From Eledone cirrhosa (taxonomy: Eukaryota), in NCBI GenBank assembly GCA_964016885.1, contig OZ024743.1, forward strand, positions 277,946,001 to 278,010,000: 64,000 bases of DNA, read 5' to 3'. The number at the start of each line of letters is the position of its first letter. Within the stretch, counting starts at the first letter, position 1. Below are positions 31,889 through 39,537 of this stretch, in pieces. The notes beneath the pieces were generated by a model. That model did not search any database and was not told the origin of the DNA. It saw only the letters and a list, made by a program, of their open reading frames with translations. The position numbers and the translations under genes were made by a program.

Positions 31889-32307
31889 TATATCAACTAG
31901 AAATTGATTGACATATATATATATATTTAAAATAAACACATGGAACAATCACAGAGGATAATTTGTAAAGTGTGTAATCACACATAGCTAGCTAGGTAAC
32001 TAATTAAAGTTTAACTAGAGCTTCAAATATTACCTTTTAAAAAATGATTAATTAATGATTTTAAAAGGTAATATTTGAAGCTCTAGTTAAACTTGAATTA
32101 GTTACCTACTTAGCTATGTGTGATTACGCACTTTACAAATTATACCCTGTGATTATTTCATGTGTTTATTTTAAATATAAGTATATATGTCAATCAATTT
32201 CTAGTTGATATAAAATGCTCGGATCTATTCATTGGAATCTTTGAGTTTATTATACGGTGGATATGGCGCATGTCTCGGACATGACTCCCTTAATTTAATT
32301 TAATAAA
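31889..32307. mobile_element. Head-to-head palindrome (31889-32212) of the 550-bp hammerhead family, with the right arm extended
   Basis: Arms of about 160 bp centred near 32051. Homologous to 38901-39062 and 39355-39472. Confidence 0.85.
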
Positions 32308-34578
32308 ATTTATTTTGTGTATATGTATATATATATATATATATATATATATATATATATATATAAATATATATATCAATATATCTATAAATATGTATAT
32401 ATACATATAGTTATATATCTATCTCTCTCTCTCTCTCTTTCTCTCTCTCTCTCTCTCTCTCTCTCTCTCTCTCTATATATATATATATATATATATATAT
32501 ATATATATATATATATGTAAGCAGAGTAAGAGGTGGAGATGGATGGGGAGAGAGGACTGACCGAGCCTTGCTCCTTTCTATGCCTATACTATCCTGTAGA
32601 CTCTCTAAATGGTTACTTAAGCTAGAAACTTGGTGGGAGCATGGCTAGCTGGCTAGCTTCAAAAGGCTCGAAGATGAATCATTTAATGTTCATGCAATTT
32701 CATTGATGTCGAGGGTTATTTATTGTCAAATTTGATTGGGTATTAGGGATCACGTGGTCAAATATCCCATATTAGCTCCTATGTCAATATCGGACACTTC
32801 TACTGGCGGCCTTCATGCAACTCATAGAAAAACAGAAACAAAATAAATCAGGCATGTTTCTACACACTTCGTATCATTATTAATTAACACGTTGATGTTG
32901 ATGGGGGACTGAATTTCCTGTACGCACGTACAATATATCAGGACCTACCAAGGTAGGTTTTAGTTTACCTTCTACTTGTTAGTATACAATGGACGTGAAA
33001 TTATAAAGACCCTAATATTATATTTGCGTGAGCCTGTTTGCGTTTATGACTATATACATATTCAACCTTGTTTGATAGTAGCTTTGTGTATATGTATGTA
33101 TGTTTATATGTATTTATATATATGTATGGATTGATGGCGGGATGGATGGATGCATGTATGTATGCATGTGCATATATGTCTGTGTGTATATGTAGACGTT
33201 TAACATATTTATATGGAAATTATATTATAAATTATATCATTCACATGTTCAAATATGTATGTATATAGCTGTGGGGCTCTATGTATATGACTTCTTTATA
33301 TATATTTGCAGCATAATATTTATGCACAGTTACATGTATAAACGTATATGTGCATATGCTCTTCGATTGTTAGCATATATCACACGTATATTTGTTTAAG
33401 TGGATGTGAGATTTATATGTGTCTGTGTGAGTAAGCGCACACACAGTTACACAGACACACTGATAGACACACATACACATACACATCATAATAAATAAAT
33501 ATATATATATATATATATATATATATATATATATATATATATATATATATATATATATATTATATATATTATATATATATATATACATTAGTATAAATGT
33601 ATTGCATAGGCGAACCATTCAATCTTGTTTTATATGCAATTAGTTATATAGTATAGTTGGGCGAAAATATGTGTGAATTTATATAATATATTTCGTAGAT
33701 ATATATTGTCTTTACATGTGTGTATGATGTAAACGTGTGTGAATGTGTTGCGTGTGTGTTTGTGTGTTTATGTATGAGGGATGTATCCATACAATTCTAA
33801 TAAATATGGATCAAATTTGCAGGCGAAATTTGAATTTGAAATGAAATTATTCTTTGGAAAAGTGTCACGAAATTATATTAGATTTTAGAACAGTTGAAAC
33901 AAATTAGTATCTCTTTTTGATCCCTTGTTGTCGTCAATTCATTACACTGTATTTCGTAAATGTTTTTTACAAAATACTGGAACATCCTTGGAAACTATTT
34001 CCGCAGTGATATTATTTTAACATTTTTGCATTTGTTAAGAATTGATTTAACGAAATCAAAAGATTTTTAAAGCTGCAAAGACTTTCCCAATACCTTAAAT
34101 CATGGAATTCAAAGCGTACGAAATACGTAGCAATTCGATTTTCACTTTTGGGATTATTCTATTAGTGATATATATTTTAATGTACTTTTTCAAGACGATA
34201 TTTTAATGTACTTTTTCAGAGATATTCCGCTACTATTTCATGACGGCCAAGTGACCACCTATAAACTCCCTCATCAGCCCATATACATATGATGCTGTTC
34301 ACCTTGTTTAATCCCAACTCTGCCATGATCTGGAAAACCTATGATCAAAAGCCTTCCAGTATTGCCCATCAAGTTTTTTTGTGTGTCTACGTTTTCACTA
34401 TCCAATGTGTCCTTCCATTTCTTTAAGACGGTAGGATACGATTTGAGAAATTGATGACTGCTATTTCCACCACCTCAAGTGCCTGATCTCGTGTTGTTTC
34501 GTGACGTTTTTATAATAAACATTTGTGTGAGACATAATTTAAAACAAAATTGCTTATTTTTTCTATACTATATACAGA

Positions 34579-34672
34579 TAATTGTTTCTACTTTAGGCAC
34601 AAGGCCAGCAATTATCCAGTGCATTACTGGTACTTTATTTTATCGATCCCGTAAGGATGAAAGGCAAAGTCA
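34579..34672 (-). mobile_element. SINE family 1, partial
   Basis: Same core as 29931-30125. Confidence 0.8.
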
Positions 34673-34763
34673 ATAATAAGATGCTAATTGAACACTTTAA
34701 TATTTTCAGGCTGTCAGATTTGTAAATGGATATGGCAATCATGGATATACAAAGAGAATTACA

Positions 34764-36125: not shown

Positions 36126-37949
36126 GTAGTTTTAGCGAATTATCGAAACTTGGTTAACGGCATGCATTACCGGGTGTTAATTCTTGTTTTAAATTATTTT
36201 CCACCAAATAGTATATTATTACACATATTTAATAAATTATAAATGGGAAATCATATCCGCATATTTGCGCAATATATATGCATGTGTATATATGAATATA
36301 TACCTATCGGTCAGACTGTCTCTTTTTCTCTGTATATATATATATAAATATATATATATATATATATATATATATATATATATATATATATATATATATA
36401 TATATATATTTATATATATATATTTGCATTCTCATCTTTGAAATACGTATAATGTATTAGATAATAAAATGATGATGTACGAATAAAACCGTCTCTCTTA
36501 TTTATTATATAATATATATATATACATACATAGATATACACATGTGTATATTACAAATATAAAAAATATGTGATCTCCATGTTTTCTGAAGAATTATGTT
36601 ATGATTCGAGGGTGATTCCTTTGCTATTTCCAGCTGGCTAAGATACAAATAATCGGCTCACCCCGTTTTCTCTTCCGTATTTATATATAAGACAAATCTT
36701 ACTTATGTTGTTTATCTACAATATATTCATACATATCATACCACGAATATATTATACGGAAACAAATTATCCATTTCACATATCATACATGTATTTATGG
36801 TGTGATAAAAAGCATATTAATTTTTATAGTGTATATCTGGAAATTAGTGACATAGAGTTAATGGTTGCTACTACTGAATTGTGATCGGTATCACAGTACA
36901 TTCATGCACACTATATGAATAAATAATCACACATACACATACACAGACACAGACACAGACACACACACACACACACACATATATATATATATATATATAT
37001 AGAGAGAGAGAGAGAGAAAGATATATAATTTAGAGAACGCGGCGCCAAGTGGTTTCGGCTTGTGTGTACAGGAAGCCTCCCTAAAGGTATAGTAATATCT
37101 GTAGGGTGTGAAAAAATAGGTCACTGCTCTTGGTAGTGATCTGGTTGAGTTTATCATAGTGGTAAACTGGTCAGATGGAGGAAGAGGAGGGAGGGACAGA
37201 CAGTGGTAAGTTTATCTAGATGGCAAATATATATATTATGGTATAATCAAGGTTGTAGCTTAAATGTACATACATACATTGCCTTAGACGTCGTCAATTT
37301 AATATTCTTTCATTTTTCGATGTATCAAAGGTACTATACGATCTGCAATATAATAGGCAGAGCGTTGAATAGAAACCTTGTGATATTCTTCTCGACTTTC
37401 TACGCACGGAGGTCAAATTCTGTCCAGACCATTTATCCTTTAAGAATCAATAAATAAATTACAAGCATAGTTCATTGTACTGGCGAACGTATTGGAGCGT
37501 CGGGCAATGTGATTTATGGTATCTATTCCGACTTTTTCGGTTATCTTTTCAAATTCGGCATAAATAGAAATGAATCGATAATGGATGAATGCGGAAAAAG
37601 GTATTCAATTTGCGAAAATTTTGGAAACTCCATTAACAGTTTAAATTTCAGAAATCATTCCAAAACAAGCAATATTTTTTCTTGTCTTTCCTGTAACTGT
37701 ATTACACCAAACAATTTCCTCTTTAACAGTACCTGTCTCTCGAAAGCTTTAATCTATTGTTAATGACCAGTCATAAAGTAATAGCGTTCCCTGGAACTCT
37801 ATTGATTTAAGCTAGAATTGTTTAAAAAATCAGCATATTCATAGATGAAAGAAATAAGAAAATCAAATTTTCTTCAAGTCTTTCTGATCACATTGGGATT
37901 TTAAAGAAGGGATATACGACATTCCTTTTTTTCTTGTGCTAGAGACCGC

Positions 37950-38545
37950 TGCACTTATGTGATGTTCCCCCTGTAGTGTAACCAGCTCATGTTAGTGGTA
38001 TTAGGGTGTGGGATGTCCATATTCTCATGTGTGCGGAGTTCCAGGCACTCATTCAGTATATGTTTAACAGTCTGCTTTGGCGCGCTACACTGGCAAGCTG
38101 TTGACATACGAAGCCCCAGATGGTACATGACCATATAGAATCGGCCGAAGCCCGTACGTAGCCGATTCAGGGAGGTTAGCTCATGTTGCATTGAGATTGA
38201 CACTCATTTGGGTGGACCGAGTTGTCTATTGCCAGCTAGCTCTACATGTGTGCGGCTTGTTGAAATCTGAGTCTCGTAGTTTTGCTGCATGACGAGAGAG
38301 AAGGTGTCATGACATCAAGCGATGTTGGCCCTATAGCTGAAAATCCTCAGCTTTCATTGAGCGATGACATGGGTCTATTGAGGCCCTGGTTGCCAACGTA
38401 TGTGTGAGATACCCTCTACAAAGGTGTGCAAGAGCAATGACCGAGAACATAGCTATATTCTCAGTTGATGTAGGGCGGAGACATCCGGGGATATGCCTCA
38501 AGATTTCATTCAAGGCTGTAACTAGCTTCTTTGTGTGGGGGCGTT
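37950..38545 (-). pseudogene. Decayed LINE 3' region (Jockey/I/CR1-group, clade uncertain)
   Basis: ALNEILRHIPGCLRPT..IA and LNRLRTGFGR...CQCSAPKQTVKHILNEC (CCHC-like). Confidence 0.7.
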
Positions 38546-38860
38546 TCGAGGTGGGTCCTCGAAAATAATCTCTGATCTCGATTAAACGAACGACAACAAA
38601 GTGAGACAAAGCAGCAAATCAACGGTATATGTGGCGTTACAAATCTACTGGTAGGAAAGCGTGTAGAATTAGAATTGCTGCGGGTTATAAAATATCTTTT
38701 TAAAATAAAGTCATGCTTGTCTGTGTGTCTAACACAGAGCCCACATATACACACTATTTGCAATAATATGATTGGTCCGTAAAATTAAATGTCTTACAAC
38801 AATACATACATGAATATATATATATATATATATATATATATATATATATATATATATATA

Positions 38861-39537
38861 TATCATCTACAAATTGATTGACATATATATATATATATAT
38901 ATATCATCTACAAATTGATTGACATATATATATATATTTAAAATAAACACATGAAACAATCACAGGGGATAATTTGTAAAGTGTGTAAACACACACAGCT
39001 AGGTATGTAACTGATTAAAGTTTAACTAGATCTTCAAATATTACCTTTAAACAATGATTAATCCTCCTTGTATATATTTCATTAAAGAAATATATTTCAC
39101 TAAAAATCCGTAAAATCACAGCAGTTGAATCTTAGATCATCAGCAAGGAGGAAGAAATAACTGTCTGTGTTTACGCATCAAATACAAATCTGCGAGAGAC
39201 CCGTCGCATGAGGCTGCAATTCTAAAACAACAAACAACATACTAGCGTCCTCCCATTGGTGTGAATAGGGTGGTCGACAGCTTTAAATAGCAGCCAAGTC
39301 CTTTCAACCGATTTAGCTCTACAGATAAGGAGCCATTTATATATCCGAAATAGATTTAATTAAATTAAATTAAAGGAGTCATGTCCGAGACATGCGCCAT
39401 ATCCACTGTAGAATAAGCTCAAAGATTCCAATGAATAGATCCGAGCATTTTATATCATCTAGAAATTGATTGGATATGGCGCATGTCTCGGACATGACTC
39501 CTTTAATTTAATTAAATTAAATCTATTTCGGATATAT
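38861..39537 (-). mobile_element. About 550-bp hammerhead-bearing unit with a repeated junction and a terminal inversion
   Basis: tatcatcta(c/g)aaattgattg occurs at 38861, about 38902 and about 39453. 39472-39537 inverts 39340-39404. (TA)n on both sides. Confidence 0.8.
39063..39151 (-). ncRNA. Type I hammerhead ribozyme with a full stem III
   Basis: cctccttg-CTGATGA-tctaagattc...gatttttagt-GAAA-tatatttc/tttaat/gaaatata-TA-caaggagg. Confidence 0.8.

What the first reader, a model, noticed from the sequence alone, without database searches (positions are those of the whole stretch)
31889..39537. Palindrome centre maps about 8 nt from the predicted hammerhead cleavage site of the same family
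Seen: in the 38861-39537 copy the minus-strand hammerhead would cleave at TA^caaggagg-attaatcattg. The related palindrome at 31889-32212 turns around at that attaat (about 32047-32056) and lacks the ribozyme. Its long arm also reads across the unit junction (ctagttgatata-aaatgctcggatc) present at 39440-39472. Inference: cDNA synthesis reached the 5' end of a self-cleaved RNA and folded back at a micro-palindrome. That would be a genomic record of ribozyme activity in vivo.
Basis: partly seen in the sequence, partly recalled or inferred. Interest (0 to 1): 0.75.

Follow-up and report, generated by a model that had tools for sequence, protein, structure and literature searches.

The report
Two-armed retrozyme insertion at ribozyme cut
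This palindrome is one back-to-back copy of a small non-coding jumping element with a predicted self-cutting RNA fold; it was likely made by copying one RNA from both ends of a DNA break, and across the genome such copies stop three times more often just inside the predicted cut site, which may be a record of the ribozyme cutting, or of its fold stalling the copying enzyme.

Summary
In detail: the palindrome turns at 32047-32056, 8-10 nt inside the predicted hammerhead cut of a 549-nt repeat. The type I hammerhead has an intact core in 72 of 92 copies and two compensatory pairs. The proposed test was run on 155 genome-order arms: 5' ends fall in unit positions 1-30 three times more often than elsewhere (p 9e-9), with a sharp drop upstream of the cut; 85 of 129 passages read through it. 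Fold-back is not the general mechanism. Head-to-head copies pair an arm starting at position 170 with one starting at 283 (57 of 59 strict pairs), share one template, and often hold sequence the other arm lacks. This fits Penelope-type priming of both DNA ends. Run-off at a self-cleaved end and stalling at stem I cannot be separated by position, because stem I begins at the cut. A sister family repeats the pile-up weakly; a second family piles up behind a TATA box instead. The scan noted the two-start rule before on other DNA. New member of the non-LTR retrozymes, with a testable in vivo signature.

The parts
31889..32052 (-). Copy A short arm, unit positions 170->9 (outer end at start site 170)
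32046..32324 (+). Copy A long arm, unit positions 8->282 (outer end at start site 283); passes site 170 at 32212
32047..32056 (.). Head-to-head junction at the GATTAATC palindrome, arms reaching positions 9 and 11
31699..31893 (.). (TA)n target, left flank of copy A
32320..32516 (.). (TA)n target, right flank of copy A
38900..39472 (-). Copy B 170-start arm, 571 nt, more than one unit, reads through the cut and ends at position 149
   Evidence: L001
39471..39538 (+). Copy B 283-start arm, positions 216->283
   Evidence: L001
39062..39152 (-). Predicted type I hammerhead: stem I 9 bp, CUGAUGA, long stem II with U-U at its base, GAAA, stem III 9 bp, AUA cut between 39071 and 39070
38861..38901 (-). 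41-nt duplication of the 170 end of copy B (possibly a repeated start; inference)

Best explanation
Copy A is a head-to-head insertion, in (TA)n, of a 549-nt non-coding repeat with a predicted hammerhead ribozyme, likely made when a Penelope-type enzyme primed both ends of a DNA break on one RNA at two fixed sites, with both copies likely stopping at or near an RNA end that self-cleavage would have made. Shown: two fixed outer ends (170, 283), their one-of-each pairing, shared template variants, (TA)n flanks, read-through multimers, and a threefold excess of ends in positions 1-30. Inferred: the mobiliser is one of the genome's RT + GIY-YIG Penelope-like elements; the two cDNAs have the same polarity, so their 3' ends can pair only at inverted microhomology, and GATTAATC is the first palindrome inside the cut, which would explain the 8-nt offset; a minority of templates (roughly a fifth to a quarter of passages, from 34% stopping against about 12% background) end at the cut, while most are circular or uncut multimers.
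For: Pairing 170/283 57, 170/170 0, 283/283 2 among 103 pairs. Arms agree at 355 of 391 subfamily sites against 58% shuffled. Ends: 44 events in 3269 nt at risk against 111 in 25126; against 9 in 2441 for 520-549, p 6e-5, although 520-549 is more AT-rich and richer in inverted microhomology. Holds in each sample and with one arm per insertion. Of 100 listed arms at positions 5-19, 5 end at 2-4 and 3 in 534-549, p 0.01; none is (TA)n joined at the ATATATA before the cut. Sister family: 9 of 55 passages stop in 1-30, ratio 2.1, p 0.04, five at 2-4. Family X shows that junction pile-ups can mark a likely RNA 5' end. Autonomous elements show the same one-tail layout. In vitro precedent: PMC11167929.
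Against: 85 of 129 passages cross the cut. No spike at position 1 itself: 2 genome-wide with a non-homologous junction; the excess is a plateau over 2-24 with a mode at 8-12, the base of stem I. In 7 of 33 cases an arm stops in 1-30 although its partner crossed the cut, against 13 of 38 when the partner stopped earlier; p 0.17. The upstream symmetric-junction control (6 loci against 20) is not significantly lower after adjusting for arms at risk, p 0.29. In family X the cut is not a hot spot. In the sister family three of the five ends at 2-4 use (TA)n microhomology. No specific autonomous partner was found. Cleavage itself is untested; in PMC11167929 cleavage was not needed for insertion in vitro.
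Confidence: 0.5

Rival explanations
1. Same two-ended priming, but the ends pile up because reverse transcriptase stalls on the folded ribozyme's stem I (positions 1-9 paired with 468-476) in an uncut or circular RNA; no cleavage is recorded.
For: Stem I is the strongest predicted helix, -14.0 kcal/mol against -7.9 for the next. Mode at 8-12. A clean GATTAATC join needs cDNAs to reach only about position 10-11; copy A shows 9 and 11. 7 of 33 stops occur where the partner arm crossed the cut. No spike at position 1.
Against: Ends continue to positions 1-4 and then drop. Other predicted helices give no pile-up (best other window p 0.02 uncorrected). The sister family, with a shorter predicted stem I, has ends at 2-4. 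In family X the 3' strand of stem I is no clear hot spot.
Confidence: 0.3
2. One reading: one cDNA ran to the cleaved 5' end, folded back at the micro-palindrome and copied itself.
For: 20 of 79 genome-order pairs are symmetric within 12 nt, at or near short palindromes. 7 of 19 parsed symmetric copies lack the 170/283 pairing, two of them with two long arms. Self-priming was proposed for palindromic junctions in PMC3846280. For copy A, fold-back of the 283 arm captured by the 170-primed end would give the same product.
Against: Does not explain the one-of-each rule, the 59 of 79 asymmetric junctions, or the 30 of 59 pairs whose short-start arm holds sequence missing from the other. 12 of 19 symmetric copies keep the rule, not clearly different from the rest (61 of 84).
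Confidence: 0.1
3. The pile-up comes only from local sequence (AT-richness, GATTAATC and TTTTAAAA palindromes), or from a transcription start near positions 1-8.
For: About 9 of 20 symmetric family junctions sit exactly on GATTAATC. Family X piles up 29-31 nt behind a TATA box, so start sites do leave this mark.
Against: 520-549 is more AT-rich and holds a 12-nt palindrome, yet has the lower rate and 0 of 6 symmetric loci centred on it (that palindrome may be hidden in stem III). The excess also holds for arms not classed as inverted (11 events, ratio 2.5, p 0.01). No TATA-like word with at most one mismatch lies about 30 nt before positions 1-8; those at 542-546 would point to about 24-28.
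Confidence: 0.07
4. The palindrome arose after insertion (DNA repair, recombination) or is an assembly artefact.
For: It lies between long (TA)n runs.
Against: Arms differ at about 8% of positions, both outer ends are at the family's fixed start sites, and the layout recurs in over 100 loci.
Confidence: 0.03

Closest known systems
Animal non-LTR retrozymes (Cervera and de la Pena 2020, PMC7229834, passages; bioRxiv 10.64898/2026.07.22.740005, parts 1-3 of 5)
   Same: Non-coding, AT-rich repeat unit with one type I hammerhead per unit; monomers and partial tandems; U-U at the base of helix II as in axolotl HHR_Amex2; unit length within the 51-972 bp range of the preprint.
   Different: Dispersed, arms at most 1054 nt in the loci seen, mostly head-to-head; the passages read do not describe fixed start sites or junction maps. 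Circular RNA and cleavage untested here.
EN+ Penelope-like element insertions (Craig 2021, PMC8557442, passages; Arkhipova 2013, PMC3846280, passages)
   Same: Inverted 5'-truncated copy, one-sided tail, (TA)n target, hammerhead in the terminal repeat.
   Different: No ORF; tail 113 nt rather than 30-40; palindromic junctions were read there as self-priming on an antisense template, whereas the one-of-each rule here points to two primed ends.
Poseidon element of Anolis in vitro (Frangieh 2024, PMC11167929, parts 1-2 of 4)
   Same: Both strands cut and extended, AT-rich target, two internal start sites that define the tail.
   Different: There the start lacks homology to the target, here both starts end in GATATA next to (TA)n; there no reads ended at the hammerhead cut and cleavage was dispensable.
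R2 HDV-like ribozyme (Eickbush 2013, PMC3774820, passages)
   Same: Genomic 5' junctions reflect the ribozyme cut, with variable microhomology joins.
   Different: Other ribozyme and element class; every full-length R2 ends there, here a minority.
L1 twin priming (recalled, no call)
   Same: Both target ends prime on one RNA and give an inversion.
   Different: In L1 the second start is a variable internal site and the arms do not normally overlap; here both starts are fixed and the arms overlap.

Membership tests
Type I hammerhead ribozyme | Core CUGANGA, GAAA, NUH cut | tested here: met
   Intact in 72 of 92 copies; N7 varies A/U. Core definition recalled.
Type I hammerhead ribozyme | Three helices, helix I open | tested here: met
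   Fold z -4.87; compensatory pairs 470-7 (p 2e-7) and 486-519 (p 4e-14), subfamily-level changes, so two events, not many. Pair 471-6 is a C-A mismatch in 48 of 92.
Type I hammerhead ribozyme | Purine-pyrimidine pair at the base of helix II | tested here: not met
   U-U in 81 of 92; the same variant is described for axolotl HHR_Amex2. Rfam gives no hammerhead match.
Type I hammerhead ribozyme | Self-cleavage | not testable with these tools
   Needs an assay.
Non-LTR retrozyme | Non-coding repeat unit with one type I hammerhead, in tandem copies | tested here: met
   549-nt unit; 50 segments longer than one unit, longest 1054 nt; no ORF of 120 aa or more over either copy.
Non-LTR retrozyme | Expressed as linear and circular RNA | not testable with these tools
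   No RNA holder listed.
Penelope-type insertion | Inverted 5'-truncated copy with one-sided tail | tested here: met
   103 head-to-head pairs, 113-nt tail.
Penelope-type insertion | Terminal repeat shared with an autonomous RT + GIY-YIG element | tested here: inconclusive
   No match better than E 0.06 in 44 GIY-YIG loci out of 10595 candidates.
Penelope-type insertion | Target-site duplication | tested here: inconclusive
   Hidden by (TA)n flanks.
Autonomous Penelope-like element | ORF with RT and GIY-YIG | tested here: not met
   None in the unit.

The most novel reading that the evidence does not exclude
Head-to-head junctions of Penelope-mobilised elements are a genomic map of the 5' ends of their template RNAs: the ribozyme cut in circular-type retrozymes (this family, the sister family), the transcription start in family X. 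This family would then give in vivo evidence that a retrozyme hammerhead cuts and that both cut linear monomers and circles are retrotransposed by a two-ended priming reaction.
Probability: 0.45. Interest if true: 0.72.

Novelty: new member of a known kind. Interest (0 to 1): 0.52.

Why it matters
How Penelope-like elements make their inverted copies, and whether their hammerheads act in vivo, are stated as open in PMC8557442, PMC4209133 and PMC11167929. The one-of-each start rule gives a genomic test of two-ended priming, and the excess of ends at the cut gives a specific prediction that one mutant pair (core-dead against stem-I-broken) would settle.

Tried and rejected
Rfam: no hammerhead match; the miRNA matches are repeat or palindrome noise. 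The repeat finder was swamped by (TA)n. Sequencing runs: no RNA holder listed; nothing was laid. Search for the autonomous partner in 44 GIY-YIG loci: none; whole-unit similarity to the sister family was not above shuffles (155 against a maximum of 159.5). Stop fraction by subfamily: no difference visible (29 of 82 against 4 of 14). Linear-gap end mapping ended early at indels and was replaced. A sharp spike at position 1 was looked for and not found. Coupling of the two arms' fates is significant only with symmetric joins included (p 0.001-0.002), not without (p 0.17). The downstream symmetric control gave 1 hit against 20 but missed two known 55/55 copies, so its sensitivity is lower. A guess at the organism was used as a search word only; no call supports it.
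Full report
Setting. The window is G000:C4:277946001-278010000 in a 3.0-Gb genome rich in (TA)n. I number the repeat unit from the first base after the predicted cut (position 1) to 549, on the strand that carries the ribozyme (minus strand of copy B).

Observation. Copy A consists of unit 170->9 (31889-32052) joined head to head with 8->282 (32046-32324), between two (TA)n runs. The arms are 150 of 163 identical, so this is an aged insertion and not a read artefact. 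The centre reads ATGATTAATTAATGAT: the arms reach 9 and 11 with a 2-nt overlap. Copy B is also head-to-head: 571 nt from 170 through the ribozyme to 149, then 216->283. Its junction is far from the cut.

Ribozyme. The 106-nt region folds with z -4.87. In 92 copies spanning it the core is intact in 72; pairs 470-7 and 486-519 change on both sides between subfamilies; the base of helix II is U-U in 81, a variant described for an axolotl retrozyme (PMC7229834, passages). Rfam misses it. Activity is untested.

Sampling. I took the first 100 of 545 exact matches to a 22-mer at position 116 and the first 100 of 388 to a 22-mer at position 31, in genome order on C1 and part of C2, and fetched all their loci. 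They collapse to 155 arms in 125 insertions. Loci chosen for full length or symmetry entered the end statistics only where they held one of these listed matches.

Two fixed outer ends. 59 arms end at 170 and 45 at 283; both sites end in GATATA beside (TA)n. Among 103 head-to-head pairs in all loci held (segments under 24 nt and TA-only hits dropped), the strict classes are 170/283 57, 170/170 0, 283/283 2; the other 44 have an eroded or different end. The arms agree at 355 of 391 subfamily sites against 58% for shuffled pairs, so they come from one template or source. In 30 of 59 canonical pairs the 170 arm reaches more than 15 nt further 5' than the 283 arm, and several pairs do not overlap. 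Fold-back cannot make these. Five of 46 apparent flank junctions hide a 283 arm of under 12 nt. Autonomous elements with RT and C-terminal GIY-YIG (5 of 8 long ORFs match both) show the same layout with tails of about 37-66 nt in most of the 14 inverted pairs printed. This matches an enzyme that cuts and extends both strands from two internal starts (PMC11167929). The inference is two-ended priming on one RNA.

44 arms end in positions 1-30 (1.35 per 100 nt at risk) against 111 elsewhere (0.44): ratio 3.0, p 9e-9. The next 30 nt upstream have 9 (0.37), p 6e-5. The excess holds in the first sample (2.5), in arms found only by the second (4.1), with one arm per insertion (3.1) and in non-inverted ends (2.5); the best 25-nt window starts at 549/1 and no other window stands out. 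Positions 520-549 are more AT-rich and offer more inverted microhomology, so composition does not explain it. Of 100 listed (of 174) arms matching 5-19, read by eye, 5 end at 2-4, 3 in 534-549, 3 at position 5 (likely chance matches; control count 2), and none joins (TA)n at the ATATATA before the cut (p 0.01). Genome-wide, 2 arms end exactly at 1 with a non-homologous junction, and 8 of 20 matches lacking C1 are clear ends at 2-4; the rest are point changes, short deletions or same-strand jumps. So the excess is a plateau from 1 to about 24 with a mode at 8-12, not a spike. 85 of 129 passages cross the cut, and 50 segments exceed one unit, which implies circular or uncut multimeric templates in most events.

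Symmetric junctions. A 30-nt window over the cut side gave 23 matches, 20 of this family, about 9 centred cleanly on GATTAATC. The same window upstream gave 13 matches, 6 family loci, none on the 12-nt palindrome; the count is not significantly lower after adjustment (p 0.29). Downstream gave 1, with lower sensitivity. Two cDNAs of the same polarity can pair only at inverted microhomology, which would explain why symmetric joins sit on palindromes and why the centre is 8-10 nt inside the cut (inference).

Cut or stall. Stem I is the strongest predicted helix of the monomer and its 3' strand is positions 1-9, so a stall gives the same boundary as run-off. If a template were cut, neither arm could cross. 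Stops occur in 7 of 33 passages whose partner crossed and 13 of 38 whose partner ended earlier (p 0.17; 77 pairs, L080 and L083 dropped as stem III self-matches, one end corrected). This does not decide.

Two other families. Sister family (689-nt unit, outer ends 296 and 420; 338 matches; 50 arms from the first 60 listed rows less a near-duplicate pair and a four-row cluster; one copy as reference): 9 of 55 passages stop in 1-30, ratio 2.1, p 0.04, five at 2-4, three of them through (TA)n microhomology. Family X (16837 matches; 91 arms from the first 90 rows): 40 end 39-55 nt upstream of the cut with a sharp edge at -46, about 30 nt behind a conserved TATA box, and 1 at +1 (some ends downstream of the cut are alignment failures between subfamilies). 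This supports the logic that pile-ups mark RNA 5' ends and shows that a hammerhead cut need not be recorded.

Literature. Retrozymes, Penelope inverted copies with tails and ribozyme-defined R2 junctions are known. Searches showed no paper mapping retrozyme or Penelope junctions to the hammerhead cut or explaining head-to-head copies by two fixed starts; the library lacks most subscription papers and I read no supplements. Earlier notes of this scan (read after my analysis) report the two-start rule on other DNA, one of them also the stall reading; they are unchecked and are not counted as support.

Verdict. Real, and part of a known kind of element. Two-ended priming is well supported (about 0.85). 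The excess of ends at the cut is real; that it records cleavage is about even odds against stalling.

Noticed in passing
window 10590-11230 (minus), hammerhead near 10670-10725: Family X: very abundant hammerhead repeat (16837 exact 22-mer matches); junctions pile up about 30 nt behind a conserved TATA box, at the 5' edge of the ribozyme, a likely transcription start.
   Followed up: partly
window 10300-10480 (plus), hammerhead at 10383: A different hammerhead family facing family X across a (TA)n run; both motifs also occur within 0.7-1.2 kb of each other in L237 and L242.
   Followed up: no
window 19300-19650: Another head-to-head palindrome with a hammerhead-like motif in each arm, centred upstream of the ribozyme.
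   Followed up: no
window 25352 and 30325 (plus): Further hammerhead-like motifs; the 25352 type occurs in tandem about 500 nt apart in L244.
   Followed up: no
L244:1040-2500 and L336-L385: Sister retrozyme, 689-nt unit, outer ends 296 and 420, tail with motifs like those at 170 and 283.
   Followed up: partly
L232:4309-7122, L233:2488-5019, L234:1775-5062: Long open frames (844-1096 aa) of Penelope-type elements; 10595 GIY-YIG candidates in the genome. L237 and L243 are 3.3-3.6-kb near-perfect palindromes of such elements.
   Followed up: partly
window 12102-12659 (minus): 185-aa frame that by eye looks like the endonuclease end of a Penelope-like element; no Pfam match.
   Followed up: partly
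window 52600-52800 and 61030-61195: Further palindromes: one of about 170 nt and a (TATC)n/(ATAG)n inversion.
   Followed up: no
G000:C3:63472368, C28:31616359, C3:25697813: Short deletions in the unit that join position 2 to 536-540, i.e. begin at the cut; template jump or hairpin skip.
   Followed up: no
window 13922-14881, 27597-28142, 48588-50940: Frames that by eye look like LINE reverse-transcriptase fragments (label recalled, not scanned).
   Followed up: no
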